DNA from: Pelagibacterales bacterium SAG-MED31
GTDB taxonomy: Bacteria; Pseudomonadota; Alphaproteobacteria; HIMB59; GCA-002718135
DNA: 64,000 nucleotides
Direction of reading: 5' to 3'
Assembly: GCA_014653715.1 (NCBI GenBank)
Contig: JACWEB010000001.1
Coordinates: forward strand, 84,798 to 148,797
Below are positions 26,534-51,639 of this stretch, one piece after another; within the stretch, counting starts at the first letter, position 1; the number at the start of each line of letters is the position of its first letter. The notes under the pieces were generated by a model. It was not told the DNA's origin and did no database searches. It saw only the letters and a program-made list of their open reading frames with translations. The position numbers and the translations under genes are program-made.

Positions 26534-26535
26534 TA

Positions 26536-33559: not shown

Positions 33560-34324
33560 ATGAAATTAAAAAATAAAAAAGTAATTATTACAGGTGGTGC
33601 TTCTGGAATGGGAAAAGCTACTGCAGAATTATTTTGTCGTGAAGGCGCAATAGTTGCCATCATGGATATTAATAAAGCTGAAGGGGAAAAAACAATTAGT
33701 CAAATTAATTCAAATATTGAAAAGGCATTTTTCTTTCATACTGATTTAACAAAATCTAAAGAAGTCAAAAAATCAATTAATCAAATTATAGATTTGTTTG
33801 GGACAATTAATATTCTATTTAACCATGCTGGAACAATAATAGTTAAGCCCCTTCATGAATCTTCTGAAGAAGACTATGATTATTTAATGAATATTAACGT
33901 AAGATCTGCTTTTCTTGTGTGTAACGAAATAATTCCTTCAATGTTAAAAAATAAAGGAGGTAATATAATTATTACTTCATCAATTGGGGGAGAAAAAGGT
34001 TTTGCTTTGGAATCTTTATACTGCATGACAAAGGGGGCTGTTTTACAATTAGCTAGATCAATTGCTGTTGAATATAGAGATCAGGGAATTAGATGTAATG
34101 CAATTTGCCCAGGATTTGTTAAAACTAATCACGGATTAAGAGAAATAAAAGAATTAGATGAGCAAGGACAAAATTGGAATGAAAACGATTTGCATTCTGT
34201 TCAGGGGAGAATATGTAAACCAGAAGAGGTTGCATCTGCAGTTTTATACTTAGCGTCTGATGATTCTAGTTTTGTTAATGGAACTGCTTTGTATGTTGAT
34301 AATGGTTGGTATGCTAAAGGATAA
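33560..34324 (+). CDS. Short-chain dehydrogenase/reductase (SDR)
   Basis: TGGASGMGKA cofactor motif, catalytic YCMTKGA (YxxxK), NAICPG. Confidence 0.8.
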   Translation: MKLKNKKVIITGGASGMGKATAELFCREGAIVAIMDINKAEGEKTISQINSNIEKAFFFHTDLTKSKEVKKSINQIIDLFGTINILFNHAGTIIVKPLHESSEEDYDYLMNINVRSAFLVCNEIIPSMLKNKGGNIIITSSIGGEKGFALESLYCMTKGAVLQLARSIAVEYRDQGIRCNAICPGFVKTNHGLREIKELDEQGQNWNENDLHSVQGRICKPEEVASAVLYLASDDSSFVNGTALYVDNGWYAKG

Positions 34325-35338: not shown

Positions 35339-35464
35339 TTAAAGCAGTAATATTTATAAAATCTATATATTATTAATATAATTTATATTTTATTAGTTTT
35401 TTTTAGTAGTTTTATACAATAGTTTTATTTAGTATTTTTATATAATTAAATACTGGGAGGTAAA

Positions 35465-36412: not shown

Positions 36413-36432
36413 ACCTTATAAATTTATTCTTT

Positions 36433-36460
36433 AGGGGGATATAAATCCCCCTTTTATTTT
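36433..36460 (+). terminator. Hairpin terminator/attenuator after the ProX-like gene
   Basis: AGGGGGAT-ATAA-ATCCCCCT followed by TTTTATTTT. It starts 21 nt after the stop. Confidence 0.8.
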
Positions 36461-36466
36461 TAAAAC

Positions 36467-38455: not shown

Positions 38456-38467
38456 ATATTACTTTAT

Positions 38468-39580
38468 TTGATCAATATGGATAAAAAGTTATTAACACCT
38501 GGACCTCTTACTACTTCACTCAGCACTAAAGAAGCAATGCTTCATGATTGGGGATCACGAGATCAAAAATTTATAGATTTAAATCAATCTATTCGCGACT
38601 CTTTAATAAAATTAATTGATGGAGAAGATAATTATCAATGTGTACCTATGCAAGGCAGTGGAACATTTGCTGTAGAGTCCATGATAAGTTCACTCACACC
38701 TAAAAATGCTCAAATTTTAATTTTAATTAATGGCGCGTATGGACAAAGAATGAAGAAAATGTGCTCCTATTTAAACAGAAATACTATTGAATATGAGGTT
38801 CCTGAACATAAACCTCATGACATAAAAAAATTAGAAGAAATAATTGATGCTAATAAAAAACTAACCCATGTTTTTGCTGTTTACTGTGAAACTACATCAG
38901 GAATCCTAAATCCAATAAATGATATTGCTAAAATAGTTGCAAAAAAAAACTTATCTTTATTTATTGACGCAATGAGTGCATTTGGCGCACTTCCACTTAG
39001 TAGTAAAAATGTTACTTTTGATGCTGTTGCCGCCTCATCAAATAAATGCCTTGAGGGTGTTCCTGGTGTTGGATTTATTTTGATGAAAAATGAAGTGATT
39101 GAAAAGGCAAAAGGAAATTGTCATTCTTTAAGCTTAGATTTGTATGATCAATGGGCAACAATGGAAAAAAATAAACAATGGCGCTTTACACCTCCAACAC
39201 ATGTTTTAGCAGCATTCAATCAAGCAATTAAAGAACATGAAAAAGAAGGTGGAATTGAGGGTCGTAACAATAGGTATAAAAATAATTGTAAGATAATATG
39301 TGAGGGAATGAAAGAAATTGGCTTTGAACAACTTTTACCAGATGAGTTGCAAGCACCTATAATTATAACTTTTAAACAGCCAAATGATCCAAACTTTAAT
39401 TTTACAGCATTTTATAATGCTCTAAGTGATAAAGACTTTCTTATTTATCCAGGTAAATTAACCGTTGCAGATACCTTTCGTATTGGATGTATTGGTAATT
39501 TAAATGATCAAGATATGAGAGATACGCTTACGTCTGTTAAAGAGGTGGTCAGCGATTTAAACATAAATTTAAAAAATTAA
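38468..39580 (+). CDS. phnW: 2-aminoethylphosphonate--pyruvate transaminase PhnW
   Basis: Close block-by-block resemblance to Salmonella PhnW as I recall it: LLTPGPLTTS..KEAML, SSNKCLEGVPG (PLP Lys), SLSLDLYDQW, KQWRFTPPTH, FRIGCIGN. The track start is TTG 38468; ATG 38477 is an alternative. Confidence 0.9.
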   Translation: MINMDKKLLTPGPLTTSLSTKEAMLHDWGSRDQKFIDLNQSIRDSLIKLIDGEDNYQCVPMQGSGTFAVESMISSLTPKNAQILILINGAYGQRMKKMCSYLNRNTIEYEVPEHKPHDIKKLEEIIDANKKLTHVFAVYCETTSGILNPINDIAKIVAKKNLSLFIDAMSAFGALPLSSKNVTFDAVAASSNKCLEGVPGVGFILMKNEVIEKAKGNCHSLSLDLYDQWATMEKNKQWRFTPPTHVLAAFNQAIKEHEKEGGIEGRNNRYKNNCKIICEGMKEIGFEQLLPDELQAPIIITFKQPNDPNFNFTAFYNALSDKDFLIYPGKLTVADTFRIGCIGNLNDQDMRDTLTSVKEVVSDLNINLKN

Positions 39581-39590
39581 AGGTAAGCTT

Positions 39591-40229
39591 ATGAGTAATT
39601 CAGATGCCGTTGAAATTCCTTTAATTAAAGCAACTAATGAATCACTAAAAGGTTATGGATATTTAATTGACTCGTATGAAGGCAGTAACATTGAAATTGT
39701 AACTTGGCCTAAACAAGGATGGCGTGAGATTGATAAAGGCACAGGCAATGAAGGTGGGAGTACAGAAGGATCCTTTGATACCTGGTGGGAAGGTAGTACT
39801 TTATGGGGGCAAAATAATGCTGTTCAACATAATAATAATGATTATGAAGTAGATGGAAAATATATACTTGGGCATGCCTTGCCTCCTGAAAGTAACACAA
39901 CTTTAGAATATTCACTTCCAGAACATATTTATATATGGCATGTTAACTATCATCCTGATGGAGGACAACTTTTCTATCCCTCAATAAAAAGTGCTTTTAT
40001 CTCTCCTTTAGCTTTACCGGGTGATGATGTGCAAGTTGGAGATTTTAAAGCTTTTTATTTTGATGGTTCACAAGGATTATATATTCATCCTAACGTATGG
40101 CATGAAGGAGTCTTTCCAATTAAAGAAAAAAGTTCATTTCAAGGTCGCCAAGGGAAAGTACATGCAAGAGTAAGTATAGACTTACAAAAAGAATTTAAAA
40201 AATATATTTATTTTAAAACTAAACTTTAA
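39591..40229 (+). CDS. Ureidoglycolate-lyase (AllA)-like cupin-fold protein, function unknown here
   Basis: 212 aa. The blocks HVNYHPDGGQLFYP and GLYIHPNVWHEGVFP resemble AllA blocks (HP.GSQ.F.P and GV.H...). Sandwiched between phnW and the metallophosphoesterase with 10-16 nt spacers. Confidence 0.45.
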   Translation: MSNSDAVEIPLIKATNESLKGYGYLIDSYEGSNIEIVTWPKQGWREIDKGTGNEGGSTEGSFDTWWEGSTLWGQNNAVQHNNNDYEVDGKYILGHALPPESNTTLEYSLPEHIYIWHVNYHPDGGQLFYPSIKSAFISPLALPGDDVQVGDFKAFYFDGSQGLYIHPNVWHEGVFPIKEKSSFQGRQGKVHARVSIDLQKEFKKYIYFKTKL

Positions 40230-40245
40230 ATTTAATTTAATTAAA

Positions 40246-41079
40246 ATGAAAATTGCACATTTCTCAGATACACATATTCATTCACAAAAAATATTAGGTT
40301 ATAATCCAGTAGAACGATTTCACTTTGCACTTGAGCATTTAAAAAAAAATCATTCTGACTCAGATATGCTAATTATATCTGGCGATATTTCACATCATGG
40401 GGTTCTAGATTCATATAAAAAATTTGATGAAATTATAGAAAAAGTTAAACTACCTAAGCATCTTTACCCTAAACTGATATTAGGTAATCATGATAATCGT
40501 GAAATTTTTAAAAATTATTTTACCAATGTTCCTATTGATGAAAATGGATTTGTTCAATATGATATTGAAATTGAAGATAAAAGATTGATTTTTTTAGATA
40601 CGAATATTCCTAAATCACATCAAGGCAGGTTCTGTGAAAAAAGACAAGCCTGGCTTAGAAAAAAAATAGAAAAAAGTATTATAAAAAATCAAAAAGTTTT
40701 TATATTCATGCATCATAATCCATTTCCACTGGTAGAATTAGACAGTGATTACATTGGGTTATTAGATAGAGATCAATTTAAGTTGATAATTAATGAGTAC
40801 AAAAATATAATAAAGCATATTTTCTTTGGACACCAACACCTAACTGTCTCTGGTAATTATTTAGGAATTTCTTTTTCTTCTCCGAGAAGCATAAATCACC
40901 CACTTGTAACTAATTTCTCAAAAGATTATAGGTTAGGGTCAGCTGATACAGATCCTAATTACAATATTATTCTAATAAATAATGATTCTATTATTGTGCA
41001 CAATGAAGATTTTTTAAAAGTCAAAATTAATTGGTTTGAAACAACACAATCAGGATGGCTAGAAGAAAATGAAGATTAA
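40246..41079 (+). CDS. Calcineurin-like metallophosphoesterase (CpdA/GpdQ/PlcP-like)
   Basis: Motifs in canonical order: FSDTHIH (DxH), SGDISHHG (GDxxxxG), LGNHDN (GNHD/E), FMHHNP, FGHQH. Confidence 0.8.
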   Translation: MKIAHFSDTHIHSQKILGYNPVERFHFALEHLKKNHSDSDMLIISGDISHHGVLDSYKKFDEIIEKVKLPKHLYPKLILGNHDNREIFKNYFTNVPIDENGFVQYDIEIEDKRLIFLDTNIPKSHQGRFCEKRQAWLRKKIEKSIIKNQKVFIFMHHNPFPLVELDSDYIGLLDRDQFKLIINEYKNIIKHIFFGHQHLTVSGNYLGISFSSPRSINHPLVTNFSKDYRLGSADTDPNYNIILINNDSIIVHNEDFLKVKINWFETTQSGWLEENED

Positions 41080-42185
41080 CCTGTCCTTTGAATTACAAAA
41101 ATTTCATTATTAAAATATAATCCATTATTTTTATTTATAATGTCTGATACAATCTTTTGATATTTTTGTAACTTCTCTGCATCAAAAACTTTGGAATCAT
41201 CTATTTGATTTACATAAATTGCAACATTCCATGCTGAAAATATGACAGAGGTTGCTATACCTCCTCTAATTTCATTAGGAAGTGCACGCAACTTACATCG
41301 AATTATTTTTTTATCTAAAAATTTTAATTTTTTTAAATCTTCTAGAGATAAGTTTGACTTTAGATATCTAATAATTTCATAAGCAAGAGCAGGGTATGGA
41401 TTTTCTTTTGGCCAAATTTTTTTAATTATTTGATTAGTAGGATCTTTCCCAGCAGCATGAACGATAATTAATTTACCTTTAGGTGAAAGCGCCTTGATCA
41501 TTGGATTAATAACGTATTTTGCCTTTTTCTCTGCTGAAATTCTAGATCGATATGGTTGAGAGGCAATAATTAAATCGAATTTGTTAGTAGCCTTTGCTTT
41601 TGTTGGAATTATATCATTTAAAACAAACTCTTGATCACCTCGATAAATAACTAGAACTGAAGGAATTTTATATGTTGGATTTCCTGTTTTAGCCGCTCTT
41701 TCTATTTGCCAGTTTTTTTCTAAAAAAGGATTAAGGGTTCTTAGTTGGTTTGCAAAGTCAATAGACGAATTACCTTTTAATTTTATATGCTTCCAATTAA
41801 TTTTTTTTTGTTTTGTGGAATTTTTAGATCGTAGATCTGCTGCTTCTGCATAATGAAGATTTGAAATTATAAAAACTGTATTTTTATGTTCAACAAATCT
41901 ATCAGGCAATTTTTCTAAGCCCAATCGCACATCCTCCATGCTAATTTCTTTTGTCGAAACCAAAAGAGGAATGTTTGGATGTTCTTGATGTGATTGTCTC
42001 ATTACATTCATTAACAATGAACCATCACCCATTCCTGCATCAAATATTTTAAGAGCAGGTTTAGTTGGTTTAATTTTTTTTATATGTGGATGAATATTAT
42101 CTGCAATTACATTCTTTTCATTGGTAGTTGTGACAAATAATAAATACTTTTGTCTATTATCAAAAAATCTAAAATTTTTTTTCAT
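41076..42185 (-). CDS. Class I SAM-methyltransferase-like protein with large insertion, unknown function
   Basis: Motif I-like IFDAGMGDGSLL, later DLIIASQPY and LSPKGKLIIV. 369 aa. Abuts the Fe-ADH stop with zero spacer. Confidence 0.4.
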   Translation of the reverse strand: MKKNFRFFDNRQKYLLFVTTTNEKNVIADNIHPHIKKIKPTKPALKIFDAGMGDGSLLMNVMRQSHQEHPNIPLLVSTKEISMEDVRLGLEKLPDRFVEHKNTVFIISNLHYAEAADLRSKNSTKQKKINWKHIKLKGNSSIDFANQLRTLNPFLEKNWQIERAAKTGNPTYKIPSVLVIYRGDQEFVLNDIIPTKAKATNKFDLIIASQPYRSRISAEKKAKYVINPMIKALSPKGKLIIVHAAGKDPTNQIIKKIWPKENPYPALAYEIIRYLKSNLSLEDLKKLKFLDKKIIRCKLRALPNEIRGGIATSVIFSAWNVAIYVNQIDDSKVFDAEKLQKYQKIVSDIINKNNGLYFNNEIFVIQRTG

Positions 42186-43295
42186 TTAAAAAACTCTCAA
42201 TTCTTCACAAGCTTTATTAAACGCTTTTTTATTACCTAAAAAATTTTTTCCTCTTTCCCCTTCAAAAGCATCAGAAACAATAATATCCCAATCTTGTTTA
42301 GCAATTTTTAATTCATTTAAATTCAAGGGGATTTCTAAATTTCGAAGTTCTTCTAAAAGCATAATTGATGAGTTATCTAAATCATCATTCAAAATTTTTT
42401 CTAATCTTTCTTCAGCAACTTTATTTACCCCTTTCATACTGCGCATAACAAATGGAAGACTGAAAGAGCAGGCAATGCCATGCTGAATACCGTGCTGTAT
42501 TGTAATTGGATATGAAATATTATGTGCAATAGCTGTTTTAGTGTTTGAAAAAGCAAGACCTGCGTGAACACAAGCCATAGCTAAATTAGTTCTGAGCTCA
42601 AGGTTTTGTAGGTCACTCACTAATTTTGGTAAATTTTCTAAAATCATTTTTGCTCCAGCAATTCCATGCATAGCCGATATTGGATTTGCATTTATATTCC
42701 AAATACTTTCCATCGAGTGGGATAATGCATCTAAACCTGTTGAGATCGTCAATCCTTTTGGTTTATCTAACATGATTGAAGGATCGATAATCGCTATTTT
42801 GGGATATAAATCTTTATGTGCTAATGATAGTTTACTATCCATCTCCTTATCCCAAATTGTTGCCCAACATGTAAATTCACTGGATGTTCCTGATGTTGTT
42901 GGTATAGCAATAATATCAATTGGCTGCTCAACTTGAGGGGCTTGTTTATTTCTAACAAATTCAGTTAAGAGATTTTTATTATCTTTAAAAGAAGCTAATG
43001 CCTTTGCAGTATCGGTAACAGAGCCTCCTCCAATAGCAACTATACAATCAATTTCTTTCACTGCTGAAAATTTTTCAAGAAGCAATAAGATGTTATTATA
43101 GTCAGGATTAGGTTGTACTTCAGTAATAATCATTTGAGGTGGGTTATGAAAGCCAGACAAAACATCTGTGTATTTTTTAAAAATATCTTCAGGATGAGTT
43201 ACAATTACATATTTTTTATTATTTAATATTGAAGACAGCTCATTAAACTTATTTGCTCCAAAAACAATATCAACAGGATTATAATATTTCCACAT
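42186..43295 (-). CDS. Iron-containing (group III) alcohol dehydrogenase
   Basis: YYNPVDIVFG start, GGGSVTDTAKA NAD motif, and a His cluster (LSHSMES, AIAHNISY, HGIQHGIA) for metal binding. Confidence 0.8.
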   Translation of the reverse strand: MWKYYNPVDIVFGANKFNELSSILNNKKYVIVTHPEDIFKKYTDVLSGFHNPPQMIITEVQPNPDYNNILLLLEKFSAVKEIDCIVAIGGGSVTDTAKALASFKDNKNLLTEFVRNKQAPQVEQPIDIIAIPTTSGTSSEFTCWATIWDKEMDSKLSLAHKDLYPKIAIIDPSIMLDKPKGLTISTGLDALSHSMESIWNINANPISAMHGIAGAKMILENLPKLVSDLQNLELRTNLAMACVHAGLAFSNTKTAIAHNISYPITIQHGIQHGIACSFSLPFVMRSMKGVNKVAEERLEKILNDDLDNSSIMLLEELRNLEIPLNLNELKIAKQDWDIIVSDAFEGERGKNFLGNKKAFNKACEELRVF

Positions 43296-43307
43296 GCTAA
43301 AAAATAA

Positions 43308-44387
43308 TTAAATAGATTTTGCTGCCTTGGACATAATTGTCATTTTTTCTATAGCCTGCTCTCTTGTAAAAAAACCTAAACCACAATCTGGTGCTGCAAT
43401 CAATCTGTCTTCATCAATATGATTGAGAGCAAATATTATACGCTCTCTTACTTCTTCAATACTTTCCATTCTACTTTTGGCAATATCAACAATACCAAGT
43501 ATAATTTTAGTATTATTAAATTTTTCTAATAGGCTTAAATCATTATGACGATGCGCATCTTCTAATGATACTTCATCTAGAGATGATTGATCGATTAAAT
43601 CTGCAATCTTATCATATGCGTCTTTGTCTGCTTTTTTATATCCTTCTGAATCAAGAGAGTTTGGATAACCACAACAAATGTGACAAACACGTTGGACCTC
43701 ATCTGGAATACCATGCATCGTTCTTTCTAAATTTTCCATACCATACTCAATAGCCTCATCAGGCTTTCTTGCAAAAACAGGTTCATCAACTTGAATATAT
43801 TTACAGCCAGCCTCTACTAAAGCTAAAACTTCTTTATTCAAAGCTTGAGCGAAATCAAAACCCATCTTTTTAGGATCGTCATAATAATTATTTGCTATTG
43901 AGTCTGATATTGTCATAGGTCCTGGCAATGTTATTTTAAGGGGGTTATTAGTAAACTGTTGTGCGCTTTTCCAATCCTTATCTAATTGAATTTCTTTACT
44001 TGAAATAGGTCCAACTATCGTCGGTAAATCAGCTTCAAAAGCACCTTGCCTTACAGATTTATGAGTTACTTCTTCAAAACTTATCCCATTTAAAAAACGA
44101 CATTGATAAAGTACATAACTCTCTCGTCTAATTTCTCCATCAGTTGGGACATCTATACCTGCGTTAACTTGATCAGTGACTGCTTGCTGGATTGATTCTA
44201 AAAATAAATTTTCAACATTGTCGCCAGCTTTTTTAATTGATTTTTCATAAGCTCCGGGAGACCAATTGGCTAAAAGCCCCTTCGAAGCTTTTCTTTCTTC
44301 TTCTGATTTTGTGCTTAAAAACCAATCTTGAATTGGTGTTTCTTTTGGCTTTGGAAATGCTCCAATAGTAGTAGTTTTCAAAGTCAT
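43308..44387 (-). CDS. Core MetE-like (cobalamin-independent methionine synthase C-terminal domain family) Zn alkyltransferase
   Basis: TTIGAFPKP, VPTDGEIRR, ITLPGPMT, IQVDEP. Candidate Zn ligands are retained: CHICCGY (H-x-C), SLEDAH (E), APDCGLG (C). 359 aa, that is single-domain. Confidence 0.7.
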   Translation of the reverse strand: MTLKTTTIGAFPKPKETPIQDWFLSTKSEEERKASKGLLANWSPGAYEKSIKKAGDNVENLFLESIQQAVTDQVNAGIDVPTDGEIRRESYVLYQCRFLNGISFEEVTHKSVRQGAFEADLPTIVGPISSKEIQLDKDWKSAQQFTNNPLKITLPGPMTISDSIANNYYDDPKKMGFDFAQALNKEVLALVEAGCKYIQVDEPVFARKPDEAIEYGMENLERTMHGIPDEVQRVCHICCGYPNSLDSEGYKKADKDAYDKIADLIDQSSLDEVSLEDAHRHNDLSLLEKFNNTKIILGIVDIAKSRMESIEEVRERIIFALNHIDEDRLIAAPDCGLGFFTREQAIEKMTIMSKAAKSI

Positions 44388-44412
44388 TGATAATTCCTTT
44401 TGGTAAAAACAA

Positions 44413-44430
44413 CGGCCAGTATACTGGCCG
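44413..44430 (-). terminator. Hairpin terminator/attenuator after the Ugp-like binding-protein gene
   Basis: CGGCCAG-TATA-CTGGCCG forms a 7-bp GC stem. On the minus strand it is followed by TTGTTTTTAC. Only 25 nt remain before the MetE-like ATG. Confidence 0.7.
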
Positions 44431-44465
44431 CTGGAATAAAATTCTAATAAAAATGTAATATTAAA

Positions 44466-45701
44466 TTACATTAAGTCTTCAATTTCCTCCATCATCTCTT
44501 CTTGTAAAGCAGCCATATCAGTTGCTTCACCAGTAACTATCATTTCTGTATAGTCATAGATAACCTGAGTAATTGCTAATCCATTTTGACCTGGATATGC
44601 AAACCAATCAGCTAATAATGGAAGCTGATCTACCGCAGTCAGTTTATTAGGATTAGCATCATAGAAATCTCCTAAGAGTTCATTAGCTGCTTTATTAGGT
44701 GGAACATATCCGGTTGTTTCTGCAACTGCTGCTGCACCAACACCTGAAGTAATGAACTTCAAGAACGTCCAAGCTGCTTGAATTCTTTCTGGATCATCAG
44801 AAGTAGAAACAAACATTGCTGCATTACCACCAGCAGGTAATGCTGTTGGGGTACCTCCATTTACACCAGGCATTCCTGGAAATGGTTCAGTGTCAAGAAC
44901 CCAATCACCTTTTGCTGCCTCAACTGAACCTAAACTAGAAGTAGACCAAAAGAACATTGGTAATTTACCAGCATTAAAAGCTGCAAGTCCATCTGCGTTA
45001 GAATAATTATTCATGTCACAGCCATCAAAAATTGCTTTCATTTGATTTAATGCATTAAGACCTGCCTGACCTCCAATATTAACCTTACCATCTTTTACCA
45101 TTGGCTCTCCTTGTGAATGCATTAATGCTTGGAAGAACCAGTTACCAGTTATACTCCATCCCCACCACATTGGGTCATGTCCAGCTGCAGAAAGTTTACC
45201 ACACGCATCAATAACTTCATCCCAAGTACTTGGAAGATCAATGATACCAACAGAAGACATTAAATCTACATTGTAGTATCCTATTGGTGTTGAAACAGAA
45301 AATGGAAGTCCATAAACTTCACCTCCAAAAGTTGATAAGCTTAACATTGCAGAATGATAACCATCTTTTTCAAAGTCAGCCTCATTTGCAATAAACGGCT
45401 CTAAAGATTTTGCAATACCTTTGTCAACTAGTGGAGCCTGTCTATTAAGACCTTGCATAGTTACATCAGGTAAGTTTCCTGAAGTAGCTTCACGTAATAT
45501 TGTACTAGTAGCATCTTCATAATTTTCATAAGTTGCTCTAAATTTTACTTTAATATCAGGATGCGCAGCTTCAAACTGAGGCATTATTCTTTGATATGTT
45601 ACATCAAAAAGACCTGAGTATGGATAAGCAAACTCAATTTCAACTGCATTTGCAGTACTAAAAATAAAAGTTGCTAAAATTCCAGTTATAAATTTTTTCA
45701 T
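44466..45701 (-). CDS. Family-1 (UgpB/sugar-type) ABC substrate-binding protein
   Basis: Signal peptide MKKFITGILATFIFSTANA. 411 aa of the carbohydrate/glycerol-3-phosphate binding-protein type. The cognate UgpC/A/E-like genes lie on the opposite strand at 48649-51639. Confidence 0.6.
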   Translation of the reverse strand: MKKFITGILATFIFSTANAVEIEFAYPYSGLFDVTYQRIMPQFEAAHPDIKVKFRATYENYEDATSTILREATSGNLPDVTMQGLNRQAPLVDKGIAKSLEPFIANEADFEKDGYHSAMLSLSTFGGEVYGLPFSVSTPIGYYNVDLMSSVGIIDLPSTWDEVIDACGKLSAAGHDPMWWGWSITGNWFFQALMHSQGEPMVKDGKVNIGGQAGLNALNQMKAIFDGCDMNNYSNADGLAAFNAGKLPMFFWSTSSLGSVEAAKGDWVLDTEPFPGMPGVNGGTPTALPAGGNAAMFVSTSDDPERIQAAWTFLKFITSGVGAAAVAETTGYVPPNKAANELLGDFYDANPNKLTAVDQLPLLADWFAYPGQNGLAITQVIYDYTEMIVTGEATDMAALQEEMMEEIEDLM

Positions 45702-45750: not shown

Positions 45751-45768
45751 GTTACATAAATATTAAAG
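45751..45768 (-). promoter_or_regulatory. Pho-box-like element upstream of the Ugp-like binding-protein gene
   Basis: The minus strand reads CTTTAAT-ATTT-ATGTAAC, 49 nt upstream of the ATG. It matches the pstS element at 21085-21102 in 17 of 18 positions. Confidence 0.5.
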
Positions 45769-45842: not shown

Positions 45843-47282
45843 TTACCAAGGAAGTGAAAAGGTTTTTACATTTGTAAAACTTTTCATGGCTTCTATAACA
45901 CCTTCTTTATATCCAAGCCCAGAATCCTTAATACCACCAAATGGCGACATCTCAATTCGGTAACCTGGAACTTCCCATATATTTACAGTTCCTACATCCA
46001 AGTTCTGGATATAATTTTTTGCTCGCATAAAATTATTTGTACAAACACCTGAAGATAAACCAAAGGCGGTAGAGTTTGATATTTTAATTACTTCTTCATC
46101 TTCATCAGGCACACGTATAATTGGTATTATTGGTCCAAAAGTTTCTTCTAAAACTAATTCACTTTTTGGATTTACATTATCAACAACTATAGGGGGGAGC
46201 AGTGCGCCCTCTCTCCCAGGATGATATAAAATTTTTGCTCCTTCTTCTTCAGCCATAGAAACTCTTTTATCAAAAAACTCAGCTGCTTCAGCATTCACAA
46301 CAGTACCAAGATCAGTTGATAAATCCATAGGATCGCCAAACTTAATTTTCTTTGCTCTTACAAGAGCCATTTCAACAAATTTATCAGCAATTTTATTTTG
46401 ACATAAAATTCTTTTAACTGCTGTACATCGTTGCCCAGAATTTTTTGTTGCTCCAGTTACAGCTAACTCTACTGCTTTTTTAAGATCATCATCATTCAAA
46501 TCATTTAAAACAATTAAAGGATCATTCCCACCTAATTCTAAAACTGTCCTCTTGTAACCAGCCTGTTCTGCAATATATTTTCCAACCCCAACACTTCCTG
46601 TAAATGTTATCAGGTCAATATTTGGATTTTGTATCATCTCTAATCCAATATCTTTAGGCCATCCTGTAACAACAGAAAACATTTCTGGAGGAAGACCTGC
46701 TTCATACAATACATCTGCCAATAGCATAGCAGTCATAGGTGTTAATTCAGTTTGTTTACATACAGTGCAATTATTCGTTGCAATTGAAGGAGCAATTTTA
46801 TGAGCAACCATATTGAGTGGATGATTAAAAGGAGTGATTGCAGAAATAGCTCTTAAAGGTTCACGAATTGTAAATATTTTTCTTGCTTTTCCATGAGGTG
46901 TTAAATCACAAGAAAATATTTCTCCATCATCATAAATGCATAGCTGGGCTGTAAGAGAAAATACATCAAAAGCTCTTCCAACTTCATAAAGAGAATCTTG
47001 TTTTGATATACCAAGTTCATAAGTAATCACATCAGAGATTTCTTCTTTTCTTTTAACAAGAGCTTCAGCAGTATTTTGAAGTATTTTTTGACGCTCATAG
47101 CGTGTTAGATTAGGTTTATAGTTTGTTGCAATATCTAAAGCTTGTTTTGCATGTTCAGCTGTCCCTGCAGGAACAGTTCCTATTACTTCTTTTGTATAAG
47201 GATATTCAACATTGATAACTGTATCAGTGTTTACTTTTTTACCAGCAATTCTCATTGATTCATTAATAATTTTTTTATTCAT
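45843..47282 (-). CDS. phnY: Phosphonoacetaldehyde dehydrogenase (aldehyde dehydrogenase family)
   Basis: ALDH motifs ELGGNDP and catalytic Cys in SGQRCTA. 8-nt overlap with phnA upstream, the same pairing as the rhizobial phnW-phnA-phnY pathway. Confidence 0.75.
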
Positions 47283-48519
47283 GACTTGCTCCTAATATTG
47301 CATAATAAAATGCATCATAGTTATACAATTGCGTATCTTTATTAATTGGTATTTTTTTATTAACTATAAATGGCACTTCACGTTCATGCAATCCACCATG
47401 TGAGCGAAGAGGTTCGTTTAAACCGCTAAGATTATGTTTTTCTTCTGAAGAGCCAATAGTCATAAACTCAGAAGACATACAAACAATATCACCCATTCTA
47501 TCTGAAGGAAGATTATATTCTTTACATGCATCACTGTTATTTAAAACCACTTCAATTTCTTTAATTTTTTTAATTTCATTCATCACATCTTCTGTTTTGT
47601 TTTTATCCTCTAAGTAGATAGTTGCAAAGGAACCAAGTGATCCATGGTGGACCACATAAGGATCAGTAATAGGTAAAATAACTTTAGTTTCGTTTTCTCT
47701 AAAAATATTATTTAAATAGTCTTGTAAGAAAATTGCATTGGGAGAACCATCCTCTTTTGATTTTGGTTTCATACCATGATCTGCTGTAATAATTATTGTT
47801 GCTCCCATTTCATCTAATTGACCTATATAGTTATCAAACATTTCGTAAAACTTATTTGCAACTTCATGACCTGGTGCATATTTATGTTGGATATAATCAG
47901 TAGTGGAGAGATACAAAATATTTGGATTAAACTCTTTTAACAACTTTACACCAGACGCCATAACAAACTCTGATAAATCCTGCGAATACACTTCAGGGAC
48001 TGGTCTATTTATCCAGTCATTTACATTTTCAATGCCATTTTCTTCTTTAGTAGCTAGATTTGATTTTTCTGCAGAAAAACAAATAGCTCTACCTTCATTA
48101 AATTTTAGACCATTTCCAAGAAGTGTTCGCAATTTATCTTTTGCTGTTACGACGGCAATTTTTGCACCACTATCATAGAATTTTTCAAAAATAGTTGGAG
48201 CACGCAGATATTGAGGATCGTTCATCATCACTTCTTTACTTGTTGATGGTGTATAAAAAAAATTACCACAAATGCCATGAACAGAACTAGGTCTCCCAGT
48301 GACTATGGATATATTGTTCGGATTAGTGAAGCTTGGAATAGCGCTATGTGCCATTAAATATTCACCAGCTTTAGTAATTCTGTCTAAATTTGTTGTTAAG
48401 CCTAACTTTGAAGCTTCATCTAAATATTCTTTCTGACTTCCATCAAGGCATATTACTACCGAAGTAGTCTTAAAAGAATTAGGATAATTTCTTTCATTAA
48501 CAGAAATCATATCAGACAT
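47275..48519 (-). CDS. phnA: Phosphonoacetate hydrolase PhnA (alkaline-phosphatase superfamily)
   Basis: Long collinear blocks match Pseudomonas PhnA as I recall it: [96 protein letters not shown]. Confidence 0.9.
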
Positions 48520-48558: not shown

Positions 48559-48587
48559 AGATAACAAATCTGTAACATTTATTTAAT
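48559..48587 (+). promoter_or_regulatory. Pho-box-like phased repeats upstream of the ugpC-like operon
   Basis: AGATAAC-AAAT-CTGTAAC-ATTT-ATTTAAT gives three half-sites in 11-bp phase. It is oriented toward the plus-strand operon whose ATG is 61 nt downstream. Confidence 0.45.
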
Positions 48588-48648: not shown

Positions 48649-49785
48649 ATGGGAACAATCAAATTACAAAATATAAATAAATCTTTTGGAAAAACAGAAG
48701 TTCTTAATGATCTTAATTTAGAAATAGAAGATGGTGAGTTTCTTACTTTAGTTGGTCCAAGTGGTTGTGGAAAATCAACATTATTAAGAATCATTGCTGG
48801 ATTAGAACAACAAACTTCTGGAGATGTTTTTATAGATGATAAAAATGTAAATAAAACTAGAGCAAGCGAACGTGATCTTGCCATGGTGTTTCAATCCTAT
48901 GCACTGTACCCTCATTTGACTGTAAGACGAAATTTAGAAACACCACTTAGACTTAGAGATTATTCCAGTTTAGAAAGGTTTCCAATTTTAGGTAACTTGT
49001 TTCCTAATAAAAAAAATAAAACAAAAAAAATACATGACCTAGTTCAAAAAACATCAGAGACTTTAAAAATTACTGAACTTCTAGATCGAAAGCCAGGGCA
49101 ACTATCAGGTGGTCAGCGTCAAAGAGCAGCTTTGGGTAGAGCGATGGTTAGGGAACCTGTGGCTTTTTTAATGGATGAGCCGCTATCAAATCTAGATGCA
49201 GCTCTTCGTGTACATATGCGCTCAGAACTATCTGAGTTACATGCAAATCTCAAAACAACTTTTATTTATGTGACTCATGATCAAGCAGAAGCATTAACAA
49301 TGTCAACAAGAATGGCAGTAATGATTGATGGAAAACTTCTTCAGTTAGATACTCCTCAACAAGTTTATGATAATCCTTTATCGTTAGCAGTTGCTCAATT
49401 TGTAGGAAGTCCAAAAATTAATACAATAAAAGGATCTACTAATTCTGATGGAACAATAAAATTTTTGAATTTAGAATTACAAAGAAAAACATCAATTACA
49501 AATACTGATATTATAATAGGTATTAGGCCAGAGCATCTTGAAATCTCTAAAGATCATTCAAATAATTCGATAGAAGGTGTGGTAAGTTATAGAGAAAATT
49601 TGGGCTCTGATATGTTTTTCCATATTGAAATAGGTGGTGATAATAAAAAATTAATAGCAAGAGGAGCACCACAATTAACCAGCTCAATAAGTATTGGCTC
49701 TAAAGTGTTTGTTACTAGGTTAAAAGGGGAAGCATTGTTATTTGATCAAAACGGTTCTCGAATAAAATTTACAAGCGATAATTAG
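48649..49785 (+). CDS. UgpC/MalK-type ABC ATP-binding protein
   Basis: [30 protein letters not shown], and a C-terminal TOBE-like domain. There is an unusual insertion of about 30 aa after the Q-loop (YSSLERFPILGNLFPNKKNKTKK). Confidence 0.75.
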   Translation: MGTIKLQNINKSFGKTEVLNDLNLEIEDGEFLTLVGPSGCGKSTLLRIIAGLEQQTSGDVFIDDKNVNKTRASERDLAMVFQSYALYPHLTVRRNLETPLRLRDYSSLERFPILGNLFPNKKNKTKKIHDLVQKTSETLKITELLDRKPGQLSGGQRQRAALGRAMVREPVAFLMDEPLSNLDAALRVHMRSELSELHANLKTTFIYVTHDQAEALTMSTRMAVMIDGKLLQLDTPQQVYDNPLSLAVAQFVGSPKINTIKGSTNSDGTIKFLNLELQRKTSITNTDIIIGIRPEHLEISKDHSNNSIEGVVSYRENLGSDMFFHIEIGGDNKKLIARGAPQLTSSISIGSKVFVTRLKGEALLFDQNGSRIKFTSDN

Positions 49786-49789
49786 AGGG

Positions 49790-50746
49790 ATGCATTACTC
49801 AAGAGCACATATATGGTTTGTTGGTCCAGCAGTGTTGTTAATGTTTATTATTCTTATCTTTCCAATACTTCTTGCAGGAGGAATTTCTTTTACAAATTAT
49901 AATTTAGGTAATTCATCATTTGAATGGATAGGTCTAGAAAACTATGAAAAAATGTTTTCTAGAAAAACATATATAAAAATGATCTGGGCAACAGCAACAT
50001 ATGTTTTAATCGTTGTTCCTTTTTCAGTAGTAATAGGTTTATGTGCGGCCATGCTGCTTAACTCTCTTCGTTTTGGCGCAGACATATACAAAACAATTTT
50101 CTTTTTACCTGTTATGGCAACTTTATTAGCTATGGCTATTGCATGGGAATTTACTCTTCACCCAACAATGGGTTTAGTTAATTCATTTTTAGCAAATGGA
50201 TGCGGTGGTATTAGAGAATTTATCTTAGGGTTTCATTGGTTGCCTTGGGTTAACTCTAATGAAAGCTGGTATCATATTGCATGTGAGAATAATAACGACT
50301 TTCCTTTTTGGTTAAAAGACAGAGGATATGCAATTTGGACAGTTTGTTTTATTGGAGTTTGGCAAGCTTTTGGTTTTAATATGGTTTTATATCTTGCTGG
50401 TTTAACAAGTATACCAAGAGAGCTATATCACGCTGCTGAAATGGATGGTGCCAAATCAACATGGGAGCAATTTAAGTTAGTTACTTGGCCAATGCTTGGA
50501 CCAACGACTCTATTTGTCATTACAATCACTACTATTCGATCATTTCAAGTTTTTGATACAATTGAAGTGCTTACTAAAGGTGGTCCATCTAAATCAACTT
50601 ATGTAATGATGTATGCAATTTTTGAAAAAGGTATTCAACAAAACTTAACAGCTATAGCTGCAGCAATTACTGTTGTGTTTATTATATTTGTTATACTGCT
50701 GACTTTCTTCCAACGATATGTCATTGAAAAACGAGTTCATTATTAA
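49790..50746 (+). CDS. UgpA/MalF-type ABC permease
   Basis: Six-helix permease with the EAA motif HAAEMDGAKSTWEQF. Confidence 0.75.
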   Translation: MHYSRAHIWFVGPAVLLMFIILIFPILLAGGISFTNYNLGNSSFEWIGLENYEKMFSRKTYIKMIWATATYVLIVVPFSVVIGLCAAMLLNSLRFGADIYKTIFFLPVMATLLAMAIAWEFTLHPTMGLVNSFLANGCGGIREFILGFHWLPWVNSNESWYHIACENNNDFPFWLKDRGYAIWTVCFIGVWQAFGFNMVLYLAGLTSIPRELYHAAEMDGAKSTWEQFKLVTWPMLGPTTLFVITITTIRSFQVFDTIEVLTKGGPSKSTYVMMYAIFEKGIQQNLTAIAAAITVVFIIFVILLTFFQRYVIEKRVHY

Positions 50747-51639
50747 TGAAAAATAATCAGTATATTGGGGAAGGGTGGAAACATGCCATACTTATTATTG
50801 GTGCTCTAGTCGTTTTATTACCATTTTATATGGTTGTTTCTATTTCTTTAAAATCACAACAAGAAATTCAATCAATTTCTGGCGGATTGATAGGGGCCCA
50901 AGAGGTACAAACTTTTCCAGTGTGTACAAAAATGGGGATGTCGGAAAAAACGTGTACAATGAAACCTTATGTATACAATTATTGGTTTGCTTTTAAAAAG
51001 GCACCTATTGCAAGATACTTATTAAATGGATTGTTTGTTACTGTTTCAATATTTTTAATTCAGATACTAATTGCATTACCGTGTGCCTATGCTTTATCGA
51101 AATTGAGATTTTATGGAAGAGAATTTATTTTTTCTATGGTTCTATTTTGTTTATTAATACCTGTTCATGCAATTGCATTACCTCTTTATGTTATGCTAGC
51201 AAAAGTAGGATTGGTTGATACCTACGCCGCCTTAATCATACCCTGGACGATATCTGTTTTTGGTATATTTTTAATGCGGCAATTTTTTATGACAGTCCCC
51301 GATGAATTAATCGATGCCGCTAGGATGGATGGTATGGGAGAATATTCAATCGTTTGGAAAGTCATGTTACCAACTGCTATTCCTGCTCTTTTAGCTTTTG
51401 CTATTTTCTCAGTTGTTGCCCATTGGAATGATTATTTCTGGCCACGAATTGTTATTACTGGAAATAGAGATTTATTTACACCTCCACTAGGTATACGAGA
51501 ATTTAGAGGAGGGGTTGATAGTGATGAATTTGGTCCAATGATGGCATCAATCGTTACTATTACAGTGCCGTTAGTTGTTGCTTTTATTATTGCTCAAAAA
51601 AGATTTATTGAAGGTATTACAATGACAGGTATGAAGTAA
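50746..51639 (+). CDS. UgpE/MalG-type ABC permease
   Basis: The start overlaps the previous stop. EAA motif DAARMDGMGEYSIVW. Confidence 0.75.
   Translation: MKNNQYIGEGWKHAILIIGALVVLLPFYMVVSISLKSQQEIQSISGGLIGAQEVQTFPVCTKMGMSEKTCTMKPYVYNYWFAFKKAPIARYLLNGLFVTVSIFLIQILIALPCAYALSKLRFYGREFIFSMVLFCLLIPVHAIALPLYVMLAKVGLVDTYAALIIPWTISVFGIFLMRQFFMTVPDELIDAARMDGMGEYSIVWKVMLPTAIPALLAFAIFSVVAHWNDYFWPRIVITGNRDLFTPPLGIREFRGGVDSDEFGPMMASIVTITVPLVVAFIIAQKRFIEGITMTGMK

What the first reader, a model, noticed from the sequence alone, without database searches (positions are those of the whole stretch)
41076..44387. Uncharacterised three-gene module (core-MetE-like Zn alkyltransferase, Fe-alcohol dehydrogenase, atypical SAM-MTase-like protein) transcriptionally tied to a Pho-box-driven transporter gene
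The three minus-strand genes are packed with 12-nt and 0-nt spacers. They follow the Ugp-like binding-protein gene, separated from it only by a hairpin. Just 25 nt lie between the hairpin and the MetE-like ATG, so there is no room for a separate promoter. Expression must therefore come by read-through from the binding-protein promoter, which carries a pstS-like Pho box (45751-45768). This places a single-domain MetE homolog in the P-starvation response; it has intact His-x-Cys / Glu / Cys zinc ligands. An iron-type ADH and a 369-aa methyltransferase-fold protein with an insertion are placed there too. The ADH could oxidise 2-hydroxyethylphosphonate to phosphonoacetaldehyde and so feed the adjacent PhnY-PhnA route. 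The ADH family includes phosphonoacetaldehyde reductases that run the reverse reaction in biosynthesis. The two methyl or alkyl-transfer proteins have no role in any phosphonate pathway I know. Folate-independent core-MetE systems with accessory proteins were described recently, so an alternative is P-regulated methionine synthesis.
Basis: inference. Interest (0 to 1): 0.65.

Follow-up and report, generated by a model that had tools for sequence, protein, structure and literature searches.

The report
Methionine-synthase-like gene in phosphonate island
In a SAR11-type marine bacterium, three tightly packed genes sit inside a phosphate-starvation gene island: a stripped-down methionine-synthase-like enzyme, a 2-hydroxyethylphosphonate dehydrogenase and an unnamed methyltransferase-fold protein. 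Comparison with other bacteria shows that the methionine-synthase-like enzyme travels with a specific nutrient importer and with phosphonate-degrading genes, a link that the papers read here do not describe.

Summary
Three minus-strand ORFs (41076-44387) have 0- and 12-nt spacers and lie 78 nt behind a binding-protein (SBP) gene, across a strong hairpin. The hairpin looks like a conserved intrinsic terminator or attenuator.

The Pho box is well supported. The same direct repeat precedes pstS, phoB, PHO4 and other P genes in the window.

The trio is a mosaic, not one obligate module:
- **ADH:** a PhpC-type 2-hydroxyethylphosphonate (HEP) dehydrogenase, a function published in 2026. It keeps all reported HEP-binding residues.
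- **MetE-like protein ("MetEc"):** a distinct core-MetE clade, 31% identical to MesD and with no DUF1852 partner. Its orthologs in many non-SAR11 marine bacteria sit next to the orthologous ABC importer. They often also sit next to phnA/phnY/phnW, one of three unrelated dehydrogenase types, MetK, or a SAM methyltransferase.
- **369-aa protein ("X369"):** a histamine-N-methyltransferase-like fold with no Pfam family. Elsewhere it heads SAM-cycle operons, and its SAR11 orthologs sit next to metY or fhs.

Best reading: a Pho-regulated importer brings in a methylated organophosphonate. MetEc passes its methyl group to homocysteine. The ADH, PhnY and PhnA then mineralise the phosphonate. The substrate is unknown.

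The parts
41076..42185 (-). X369: 369-aa class-I methyltransferase-fold protein of an unnamed family. SAM motif I is FDAGMGDG at residue 48 and motif IV-like DLIIASQPY at residue 204.
   Evidence: No Pfam or NCBIfam family. AlphaFold pLDDT 91; best fold match is histamine N-methyltransferase, E 5e-11. More than 566 genomes carry relatives. Contexts.
42186..43295 (-). PhpC-type iron-family alcohol dehydrogenase; predicted 2-hydroxyethylphosphonate dehydrogenase.
   Evidence: TIGR03405 at 364 bits (cut-off 423.7), next best family 171 bits. Metal ligands D189/H193/H258/H272 and the HEP-binding equivalents K155/T254/Y262/R348 are conserved (against PMC13576164).
43308..44387 (-). MetEc: single-domain Meth_synt_2 protein, a distinct clade of core methionine synthases.
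   Evidence: PF01717 at 122 bits. Best NCBIfam hits are PRK09121 at 196 bits (cut-off 392) and PRK04326 at 191 bits (cut-off 406). 31% identical to MesD, and no DUF1852 nearby. Zinc ligands H236/C238/E276/C335. Orthologs and contexts.
44410..44433 (-). Terminator/attenuator-like hairpin followed by a U-run, between the binding-protein gene and MetEc.
   Evidence: The structure is kept with a different stem sequence in SAR11 relatives (GGCCAG/CTGGCC versus GCGGCTTT/AAAGCCGC), always followed by T-rich sequence.
44466..45701 (-). Periplasmic binding protein of the sugar/glycerol-phosphate (UgpB-like) ABC class. It is the conserved partner of MetEc.
   Evidence: SBP_bac_1/8. Weak UgpB similarity. 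Orthologs 62-68% identical lie beside MetEc orthologs in other bacteria.
45751..45767 (-). Pho-box-like direct repeat upstream of the binding-protein gene.
   Evidence: One base different from the repeat upstream of pstS. Related repeats with 11-nt spacing occur in SAR11 relatives.
45843..47282 (-). phnY, phosphonoacetaldehyde dehydrogenase.
   Evidence: TIGR03250 at 784.6 bits, above the 635.65 cut-off.
47275..48519 (-). phnA, phosphonoacetate hydrolase.
   Evidence: TIGR02335 at 470.3 bits, above the 407.55 cut-off.
48571..48587 (+). Second Pho-box-like repeat, in the divergent phnA / ABC-ATPase promoter region.
48649..51639 (+). ATPase and two permeases of the same ABC importer.
   Evidence: Orthologs (52-76% identical) are co-operonic with the binding protein and MetEc in other bacteria.
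38468..41079 (+). phnW, a cupin (ureidoglycolate-lyase-like) protein and a metallophosphoesterase, convergent on X369.
   Evidence: Conserved in SAR11 relatives.

Best explanation
The three genes lie at the distal end of a Pho-regulated, phosphonate-scavenging transcription unit in a SAR11-type genome. They are three separable parts, not one machine.

1. PhoB-type boxes drive the binding-protein gene and the divergent phnA/ABC promoters. A conserved terminator-like hairpin after the binding-protein gene lets only part of the transcripts continue into MetEc-ADH-X369 (inferred).
2. The UgpB-like ABC importer and MetEc are the evolutionarily conserved pair. MetEc is a zinc-dependent homocysteine S-methyltransferase with no folate domain. 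It takes a methyl group from the imported compound and makes methionine. The donor is most plausibly a methylated organophosphonate, such as N,N,N-trimethyl-2-aminoethylphosphonate or a phosphonate methyl ester (inferred; substrate unknown).
3. The PhpC-type ADH oxidises 2-hydroxyethylphosphonate to phosphonoacetaldehyde. PhnY and PhnA then convert this to acetate and phosphate. This step rests on a published activity of the family and on conserved residues.
4. X369 is a SAM-binding methyltransferase-fold protein of the methionine/SAM cycle. In this setting it most likely consumes the SAM made from that methionine, which regenerates homocysteine, or else it senses SAM/SAH (inferred; the weakest step).
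For: **Pho control**
- The repeat is enriched, 12 matches against 2.7 expected. It lies upstream of pstS, pstC, phoB, PhoU_div-PHO4, phnS2, this binding-protein gene and the phnA/ABC region.

**Hairpin**
- It is strong and structurally conserved, with different stem sequences in relatives.

**ADH**
- TIGR03405 is by far the best family.
- K/T/Y/R HEP-binding residues and D/H/H/H metal ligands are conserved.
- No PEP mutase appeared among the 63 ORFs of at least 120 aa that were Pfam-scanned; four (12585-15011) were not scanned. A catabolic role is therefore more likely than a biosynthetic one.

**MetEc as a homocysteine methyltransferase**
- Zinc ligands are present, and two of the three MetE homocysteine-binding residues are kept.
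- MetK lies 42-76 nt from MetEc in L107, L121 and L133.
- A PF02574 homocysteine methyltransferase lies just after ADH-X369 in L001, which has no MetEc.

**MetEc tied to the importer**
- The orthologous binding protein is present in 23 of 38 non-SAR11 MetEc loci with at least 5 kb of flank. It is usually directly upstream in one operon.

**Tie to phosphonates**
- 17 of the 38 loci carry phosphonate genes.
- The adjacent dehydrogenase is Fe-ADH, a Zn-ADH of TIGR03366 (phosphonate-catabolism associated; the family PbfG resembles) or a HIBADH-like enzyme.

**X369**
- The fold and the SAM motifs.
- X369 - MTHFR-like - MetK - adenosine kinase - AhcY - Fhs operons in other bacteria.
- X369, or a Methyltransf_11 enzyme, sits at the head of ABC-MetEc operons in L109, L122, L103 and L108.

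**Island content**
- A choline/betaine-type ABC importer is co-operonic with phnW, and an aminophosphonate oxidoreductase is present. Both are consistent with N-methylated aminophosphonates as substrates (PMC10590968).
Against: - No substrate was tested, and the binding protein's ligand is unknown.
- One MetEc lineage (Magnetovibrio-like, 69-70% identical) has no importer or phosphonate gene nearby. It sits beside a succinate-semialdehyde-dehydrogenase-like gene.
- X369 orthologs in sister SAR11 clades lie beside metY or fhs with no phosphorus genes. SAR11 variants exist with MetEc-ADH but no X369, with X369 but neither MetEc nor ADH, and with MetEc-X369 but no ADH. X369 may therefore be only a neighbour.
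- A trimethyl-aminophosphonate donor does not explain the recurring alcohol dehydrogenase. A methyl-ester donor has no known natural source in seawater.
- The hairpin could fully terminate, and an unseen promoter could drive the trio independently of phosphate.
Confidence: 0.45

Rival explanations
1. P-regulated, folate-independent methionine synthesis with X369 as the accessory partner, as MesX is for MesD. Under this reading MetEc plus X369 make methionine from an endogenous, non-phosphonate methyl source. Their place in the phosphonate island reflects regulation only.
For: X369 relatives sit directly beside core-MetE-like genes of two different subfamilies: L164 with MetEc, and L062, L085 and L056 with PRK06520-type proteins. 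X369 is embedded in SAM-cycle operons. MetK is adjacent to MetEc.
Against: X369 has a class-I SAM-methyltransferase fold with intact SAM motifs. Supplying methyl groups from SAM to a methionine synthase would be futile. X369 is absent from most MetEc loci (present in 5 of 38) and from SAR11 variants L131, L137 and L147. By contrast the importer is the constant partner.
Confidence: 0.17
2. Mosaic by neighbourhood only. The ADH belongs to the HEP/PhnY/PhnA route, the importer plus MetEc are an independent methionine-salvage unit, and X369 is a relocated housekeeping gene. There is no shared pathway.
For: Each gene is independently present or absent among SAR11 relatives. The X369 tree follows SAR11 subclades, with different neighbours in each. 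The island gathers many unrelated P-acquisition systems.
Against: MetEc is linked again and again with three non-homologous dehydrogenases, with phnA/phnY/phnW and with methyltransferases, in distant lineages. Chance neighbourhood explains this poorly.
Confidence: 0.2
3. Glycerophosphocholine/choline route. The UgpB-like importer takes up glycerophosphocholine, the metallophosphoesterase releases choline, the ADH and an aldehyde dehydrogenase make glycine betaine, and MetEc acts as a betaine-homocysteine methyltransferase analogue.
For: UgpB-like binding protein. A metallophosphoesterase lies in the operon in L116, L127 and L132. Betaine-aldehyde-dehydrogenase-like genes occur in 9 loci. A BCCT transporter lies beside MetEc in L086.
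Against: The window's ADH keeps the Lys/Arg/Tyr clamp reported for the phosphonate group of HEP. It scores 364 bits on the phosphonate family against 122 on choline dehydrogenase. The Zn-ADH partners match the phosphonate-associated family TIGR03366. The only aldehyde dehydrogenase here is a clear PhnY.
Confidence: 0.08
4. MetEc is a thiol alkyl-transferase rather than a methyltransferase, like the MetE-related epoxyalkane:coenzyme M transferase (recalled from my own knowledge). It would join a thiol to an electrophilic phosphonate, and the dehydrogenase would oxidise the hydroxy-thioether product.
For: A dehydrogenase is the most constant enzymatic neighbour after the importer. The Ser-to-Ala change at the first homocysteine-contact position is conserved in the clade.
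Against: Two homocysteine-binding residues are kept. MetK adjacency and the PF02574 gene that accompanies ADH-X369 in L001, where MetEc is absent, point to methionine formation. No candidate electrophilic marine phosphonate is known.
Confidence: 0.05

Closest known systems
PhpC-type phosphonoacetaldehyde reductase / HEP dehydrogenase (TIGR03405; degradative PhpC of Paraburkholderia fungorum, PMC13576164)
   Same: Iron-ADH fold, the same metal ligands, the same predicted HEP-binding Lys/Thr/Tyr/Arg, and a position next to phnY-phnA.
   Different: Scores below the curated cut-off (364 against 423.7). Only 44% identical to a near-cut-off member (L088). Here it is flanked by a MetE-like gene and X369, a combination not mentioned in the main text of that paper (its supplementary tables were not available).
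Core (folate-independent) methionine synthases MesA-MesD, especially MesD/MesX (PMC7857596)
   Same: Single Meth_synt_2 domain of about 360 aa, no folate-binding domain, His-x-Cys/Glu/Cys zinc site, and the closest solved structure is MesD 3RPD.
   Different: 31% identical to MesD. Half the family cut-off score. No DUF1852 in the window or in any of about 170 related loci. A clade-specific insertion of about 45 aa near the N-terminus (TPxxDWF...GLLxxW...YE). Its constant partner is an ABC importer, not an accessory enzyme or a corrinoid protein.
Transporter-plus-homocysteine-methyltransferase pairs such as E. coli mmuP-mmuM, and betaine-homocysteine methyltransferase (PF02574); recalled from my own knowledge
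   Same: The logic is the same: import an onium methyl donor and pass one methyl to homocysteine. A PF02574 gene follows ADH-X369 in locus L001, which lacks MetEc.
   Different: Different fold (MetE barrel, not PF02574), a different transporter class, Pho-box control and phosphonate neighbours.
SahR/SamR, regulators with a methyltransferase-like SAH/SAM-sensing domain (PMC4239095)
   Same: X369 relatives sit at the head of metK-ahcY-metF-type operons, and most non-SAR11 forms carry an extra N-terminal domain of about 60 aa.
   Different: That N-terminal domain is not ArsR-type and gave no significant fold match. The window's X369 has no such domain at all.
Histamine N-methyltransferase (structural neighbour of X369)
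   Same: Class-I SAM methyltransferase core with an inserted lid domain.
   Different: 11-13% identity, TM-score only 0.5-0.66, substrate unknown.

Membership tests
PhpC-type HEP dehydrogenase (TIGR03405) | Score at or above the curated family cut-off | tested here: not met
   364.4 bits against a cut-off of 423.7. It is still the best family by more than 190 bits.
PhpC-type HEP dehydrogenase (TIGR03405) | Metal ligands Asp/His/His/His, and HEP-binding Lys157, Thr256, Tyr264 and Arg349 (P. fungorum numbering) | tested here: met
   D189, H193, H258, H272; K155, T254, Y262, R348. Positions were mapped by a fixed offset, and the window ADH was also aligned with the L088 homologue (residues from PMC13576164). 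The reference sequence itself was not available, so the mapping is by offset only.
PhpC-type HEP dehydrogenase (TIGR03405) | Gene clustered with phnX or phnY-phnA, without pepM | tested here: met
   phnY and phnA lie 2.5 kb upstream. No PEP-mutase hit appeared in the window ORFs that were scanned.
PhpC-type HEP dehydrogenase (TIGR03405) | NAD-dependent oxidation of HEP | not testable with these tools
   Needs an enzyme assay.
MetE (TIGR01371) | N-terminal folate-binding Meth_synt_1 domain; about 750 aa | tested here: not met
   359 aa, with only PF01717 matched; TIGR01371 at 95 bits against a cut-off of 930.
MesD/MesX | Close similarity to MesD (family cut-off) | tested here: not met
   PRK09121 at 196 bits against 392. 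31% identical to Rahnella MesD.
MesD/MesX | Adjacent DUF1852 (MesX) gene | tested here: not met
   tblastn with MesX found it only in the two plasmid MesD loci. It was absent from the window and from every MetEc or X369 locus.
Core methionine synthase (any family) | Zinc ligands His-x-Cys, Glu/Asp, Cys | tested here: met
   H236, C238, E276 and C335, invariant in 10 orthologs.
Core methionine synthase (any family) | Homocysteine-binding residues equivalent to MetE Ser433, Glu484 and Asp599 | tested here: inconclusive
   The Glu (DGE, E85) and the Asp (VDEP, D201) are present. The Ser position is Ala in 9 of 10 orthologs.
MesA/MesB/MesC | Occurrence in methanogens or in Wood-Ljungdahl anaerobes with corrinoid donor proteins | tested here: not met
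   The host is an aerobic SAR11-type bacterium. PRK04326 scores 191 bits against 406. One locus (L086) has a URO-D/B12-binding gene 5 kb away; none was seen in the other loci whose genes were listed with Pfam annotation.
Class-I SAM-dependent methyltransferase (X369) | Rossmann-like methyltransferase fold with the Gly-rich motif I and an acidic residue after strand 2 | tested here: met
   pLDDT 91; 173 PDB matches at E<=0.001, the listed ones methyltransferases or methyltransferase-fold proteins; FDAGMGDG and K79-E80 are conserved.
Class-I SAM-dependent methyltransferase (X369) | Membership of a described sequence family | tested here: not met
   Best Pfam hit is E 0.0099, below the cut-off. 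No NCBIfam hit. All named relatives are called 'hypothetical protein'.
SahR-like regulator (X369) | DNA-binding domain fused to the methyltransferase-like domain | tested here: not met
   The window protein starts directly at the methyltransferase core. The extra domain of distant relatives gave no DNA-binding fold match.
PhoB regulon (Pho box) | Direct repeats at 11-nt spacing, shared with pstS and other P genes of the same genome | tested here: met
PhoB regulon (Pho box) | Induction by phosphate starvation | not testable with these tools
   Needs expression data.
Intrinsic terminator | G+C-rich stem followed by a U-tract, conserved as a structure | tested here: met

The most novel reading that the evidence does not exclude
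MetEc founds a fifth family of folate-independent methionine synthases. Its methyl donor would be an imported methylated organophosphonate, for example N,N,N-trimethyl-2-aminoethylphosphonate demethylated to the dimethyl form. The island's aminophosphonate oxidoreductase, PhnY and PhnA would then mineralise that product. Abundant ocean bacteria that cannot reduce sulfate would thereby obtain methionine methyl groups and phosphate from the same molecule. X369 and MetK would turn homocysteine over catalytically.
Probability: 0.25. Interest if true: 0.8.

Novelty: new variant of a known kind. Interest (0 to 1): 0.62.

Why it matters
Phosphonates hold a large share of marine dissolved organic phosphorus, and SAR11 is among the most abundant ocean bacteria.

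The ADH step is already known. The new observation concerns the MetE-like enzyme. It is distinct from MetE and from MesA-MesD, and it is repeatedly wired to one specific ABC importer, to phosphonate hydrolase genes and to SAM-cycle genes in SAR11 and in other marine bacteria. None of the papers read here describes this.

If the imported compound is the methyl donor, two things would follow:
- It would be a new entry point for methylated phosphonates. The only route reported for the trimethyl compound is oxygenase-based (PMC10590968).
- It would link phosphorus scavenging to methionine supply in organisms that depend on external reduced sulfur (own knowledge).

Separately, X369 defines a widespread, unnamed methyltransferase-fold family. 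It sits at the head of SAM-cycle operons in hundreds of genomes and deserves characterisation in its own right.

Tried and rejected
- **Binding protein as AepX:** rejected. AepX is pfam13343 (PMC8316502), whereas this protein is SBP_bac_1/8. A true phnS2/AepX-type gene lies at 28097-29116.
- **MesD/MesX membership:** rejected.
- **Riboswitch or other RNA upstream of MetEc or its Magnetovibrio ortholog:** no Rfam match at gathering scores in the window or in L002.
- **Magnetovibrio aldehyde dehydrogenase as PhnY:** rejected. It is 29% identical and is a succinate-semialdehyde-dehydrogenase type.
- **Plasmid search with MetEc:** returned only proteins of about 31% identity; the two inspected are MesD with an adjacent DUF1852 gene.
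- **Profile search of X369 against solved structures and Pfam:** nothing usable.
- **Fold of the N-terminal domain of long X369 forms:** single-sequence model with pLDDT 71 and no match below E 0.1. The regulator idea stays open.
- **The 19-sequence X369 alignment:** too diverse for the locus scan, so it was repeated with 10 sequences.
- **Exact look-up of the window's MetEc:** not on record.
- **Biosynthetic role for the ADH:** judged unlikely, because no PEP mutase was found among the window ORFs that were scanned.
- **Supplementary tables of PMC13576164:** not held.

Full report
**1. What is in the sequence**

The window has about 30% G+C. Its closest relatives are single-cell genomes labelled Pelagibacteraceae or uncultured Alphaproteobacteria, so it is a SAR11-type genome.

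The three minus-strand ORFs are exactly as described:
- X369, 41076-42185
- an iron-type ADH, 42186-43295
- a MetE-like protein ("MetEc"), 43308-44387

The spacers are 0 and 12 nt. MetEc starts 78 nt after the stop of a binding-protein gene (44466-45701).

The spacer holds a 10-bp hairpin with 7 G-C pairs at 44433-44410. It has dG -18.3 kcal/mol and z -4.7, and it is followed by UUUUU. Then come 22 nt containing a ribosome-binding site. The consensus scan found no promoter-like site on that strand in the spacer.

SAR11 relatives keep the hairpin but with different stem sequences: GGCCAG/CTGGCC in some and GCGGCTTT/AAAGCCGC in others, always followed by T-rich sequence. This is the anatomy of an intrinsic terminator or attenuator placed after a highly expressed binding-protein gene. 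Read-through into the trio is plausible but has not been shown.

**2. The Pho box**

With its neighbours, that gene forms phoR-pstSCAB-phoU-phoB at 15082-22153.

The pattern TGTAAYN5TGTAAY with up to one mismatch occurs 12 times, against 2.7 expected, and none of 100 shuffles reached 12. Eight of the 12 matches lie in intergenic regions just upstream of P-acquisition genes:
- pstS
- pstC
- phoB
- PhoU_div-PHO4
- the phnS2-type aminoethylphosphonate binding protein (two overlapping matches)
- the binding protein of this finding
- the divergent phnA/ABC-ATPase region

Most SAR11 relatives carry two or three such repeats at 11-nt spacing upstream of the orthologous binding-protein gene. Membership of the Pho regulon is therefore well supported at the sequence level.

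**3. The surrounding island**

From 15 to 52 kb the window is a phosphorus-acquisition island. It contains:
- the pst/pho genes and PHO4
- a PhnZ-like HD oxygenase
- a phnS2-type ABC importer, followed by a putative aminophosphonate oxidoreductase (TIGR03329, 585 bits) and an SDR
- a choline/betaine-type ABC importer, tightly co-directional with phnW, a cupin and a metallophosphoesterase (34328-41079)
- convergent on that, phnA-phnY, the binding protein, MetEc, the ADH and X369
- finally the ATPase and two permeases of the binding protein's importer

No PEP mutase appeared among the ORFs scanned. The context is therefore catabolic.

**4. The ADH**

Its best family is TIGR03405, the phosphonate-associated iron ADH. 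It scores 364 bits against a cut-off of 423.7, and the next family scores 171 bits.

A 2026 paper shows that degradative PhpC enzymes of this family oxidise 2-hydroxyethylphosphonate (HEP) to phosphonoacetaldehyde. It names the predicted HEP contacts as Lys157, Thr256, Tyr264 and Arg349, with Tyr264 specific to PhpC (PMC13576164). The window protein has the equivalents: K155, T254, Y262 and R348, plus the four metal ligands.

An earlier survey had suggested the same (PMC9381506).

**5. MetEc**

It has only the catalytic Meth_synt_2 domain. It scores about half the cut-off of the nearest curated families: PRK09121 at 196 bits (cut-off 392) and PRK04326 at 191 bits (cut-off 406).

PRK09121-type proteins on plasmids are MesD, each with an adjacent DUF1852 gene. 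MetEc is 31% identical to them, and DUF1852 is absent from the window and from all related loci. The closest solved structure is MesD 3RPD.

The zinc ligands are invariant, as are the Glu and Asp that contact homocysteine in MetE. The Ser position is Ala. The clade is tight, with 73% mean column identity over orthologs of 55-100% identity. It has its own conserved insertion near the N-terminus, rich in aromatic and acidic residues.

**6. Where MetEc lives elsewhere**

I inspected nine look-ups of orthologs on long contigs and 80 metagenome loci.

Among 38 non-SAR11 loci (54-75% identity, at least 5 kb of flank):
- 23 carry the orthologous binding protein (62-68% identical). It usually forms ATPase-permease-permease-binding protein-MetEc in one operon, sometimes with a divergent LysR gene.
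- 17 carry phosphonate genes (phnA, phnY, phnW, a PhnD-type transporter or phosphonate-type ADHs).
- 15 carry a dehydrogenase next to or near MetEc. Three unrelated types occur: Fe-ADH, a Zn-ADH best matching TIGR03366 ("phosphonate catabolism associated"; 295-300 bits against a cut-off of 328; the family that PbfG resembles), or a HIBADH-like enzyme 25-169 nt downstream.
- In 3 loci MetK lies 42-76 nt from MetEc.
- 7 carry a SAM methyltransferase, either X369 or a Methyltransf_11 protein.

One lineage (Magnetovibrio-like, 69-70% identical) has none of these.

In SAR11 locus L001, phnA-phnY-ADH-X369 is followed by a PF02574 homocysteine methyltransferase, and there is no MetEc.

Taken together:
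- MetEc forms methionine. The evidence is the MetK adjacency, the PF02574 gene that accompanies ADH-X369 in L001 where MetEc is absent, and the conserved residues.
- Its constant partner is this importer.
- The pair is recurrently embedded in phosphonate catabolism.

**7. X369**

It has no Pfam or NCBIfam family, and all named relatives are "hypothetical protein". The AlphaFold model is confident (pLDDT 91). It is a class-I methyltransferase with an inserted lid, closest to histamine N-methyltransferase. The SAM motifs and many polar residues are conserved.

Relatives occur in more than 566 genomes. In Gamma- and Alphaproteobacteria the gene opens operons of the form X369 - divergent MTHFR-like - MetK - adenosine kinase - AhcY - formate-THF ligase, often with a MetE-like gene nearby. 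Most of these forms carry an extra N-terminal domain (AESTFGRxAVNDGK...) whose fold I could not assign. The same long form heads ABC-MetEc operons in L109 and L122.

Within SAR11 the copies are monophyletic. The phosphonate-linked ones form one subclade. Sister subclades have the gene beside metY or fhs, with no phosphorus genes. No genome yielded two copies. The gene therefore looks like one ortholog that sits in different places.

SAR11 variants exist with every combination:
- MetEc-ADH without X369 (L131, L137, L147)
- MetEc-X369 without ADH (L172)
- X369 alone after phnY (L006, L016)

**8. Mechanism**

*Shown or strongly supported*
- Pho-box control of the binding-protein gene.
- A conserved attenuator-like hairpin.
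- The ADH as an HEP dehydrogenase.
- MetEc as a member of a new core-MetE clade tied to the importer and to phosphonate genes.
- X369 as a SAM-cycle-linked methyltransferase-fold protein.

*Inferred*
- The importer delivers a methylated organophosphorus compound.
- MetEc moves one methyl group to homocysteine.
- The remaining phosphonate is degraded through phosphonoacetaldehyde.

Two donor candidates fit parts of the evidence.

The first is N,N,N-trimethyl-2-aminoethylphosphonate. It is a frequent natural analogue. The FAD oxidoreductases do not attack it, and its only described route is oxygenase-based. Its dimethyl product, however, is oxidised to phosphonoacetaldehyde by a PbfD enzyme (PMC10590968). 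The island also has an aminophosphonate oxidoreductase and a choline-type importer beside phnW. This candidate does not explain the dehydrogenase partner.

The second is a phosphonate methyl ester. It resembles the phosphodiesters that UgpB-type proteins bind, and it would yield HEP for the ADH. No natural source is known.

X369 (or MetK, or a Methyltransf_11 enzyme) next to MetEc suggests that the methionine is cycled through SAM to regenerate homocysteine. This is the least secure step.

**9. Verdict**

The ADH part is already known. The MetEc-importer-phosphonate association and the X369 family appear undescribed in the papers I could search. The finding is a new variant of known kinds, with a testable and potentially important novel reading.

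Noticed in passing
window 15082-29116: Complete phoB-phoU-pstBACS-phoR cluster, PhoU_div-PHO4 and a phnS2-type binding protein. Most of these units are preceded by the same TGTAAY-N5-TGTAAY direct repeat, which gives a usable SAR11 Pho-box consensus (12 sites against 2.7 expected).
   Followed up: partly
window 34328-41079: A choline/betaine-type ABC importer (ProV-like ATPase, weakly choline-like binding protein, fused 662-aa ChoW-like permease) is tightly co-directional with phnW, a cupin and a metallophosphoesterase. This hints that it carries a quaternary or N-methylated aminophosphonate rather than an osmolyte.
   Followed up: partly
window 39591-41079: A 212-aa ureidoglycolate-lyase-like cupin and a SpdA/CpdA-like metallophosphoesterase always follow phnW in SAR11 relatives. 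A 50%-identical cupin lies beside a MetEc ortholog in L153, and metallophosphoesterases sit inside ABC-MetEc operons (L116, L127, L132). Their roles are unknown.
   Followed up: partly
window 26012-27096: A PhnZ-like HD-domain oxygenase (TIGR03276, 207 bits against a cut-off of 215; also similar to TmpB) lies next to a dual-specificity-phosphatase-like protein. No obvious partner dioxygenase was seen.
   Followed up: no
window 31929-34324: A putative aminophosphonate oxidoreductase (TIGR03329, 585 bits; the PF01266 family to which PbfB/C/D belong) and an SDR follow the phnS2-type importer.
   Followed up: no
window 44443-44459 (+): A Pho-box-like repeat with one mismatch lies in inverted orientation inside the binding-protein/MetEc spacer, just upstream of the hairpin. 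It is only weakly conserved in relatives.
   Followed up: partly
window 41076-41079: The stop codons of the convergent X369 and metallophosphoesterase genes overlap by 4 nt, so there is no terminator between the two convergent units.
   Followed up: no
window 58565-60569: A PfkB-family kinase and an adenosine deaminase lie a few kb from the island. A PfkB-family kinase, read here as adenosine kinase, is part of the X369-headed SAM-cycle operons in other bacteria.
   Followed up: no
loci L038-L085 (e.g. L041 9629-19213, L077 9764-13937): X369 relatives open operons with a divergent MTHFR-like protein (46 bits on TIGR00676), MetK, adenosine kinase, AhcY and formate-THF ligase. Most carry a conserved N-terminal domain of about 60 aa of unknown fold. 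Some long forms (P0274, P0263) have degenerate SAM motifs.
   Followed up: partly
locus L001 11318-19248: In this SAR11 relative a PF02574 homocysteine methyltransferase follows ADH-X369 and there is no MetEc. A second UgpB-like ABC importer plus a GDPD glycerophosphodiesterase is inserted between the metallophosphoesterase and the cupin.
   Followed up: partly
loci L086/L087 14976-16925 and L094 1-146: A URO-D/B12-binding fusion protein (L086) and an MttB-family gene (L094) lie within 9 kb of MetEc orthologs. These are possible corrinoid-linked methyl donors in those lineages.
   Followed up: no
window 1-6000: G+C drops to 24-25% over housekeeping genes (ybeY, phoH-like, miaB-like), lower than the 30-35% seen across most of the island.
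   Followed up: no
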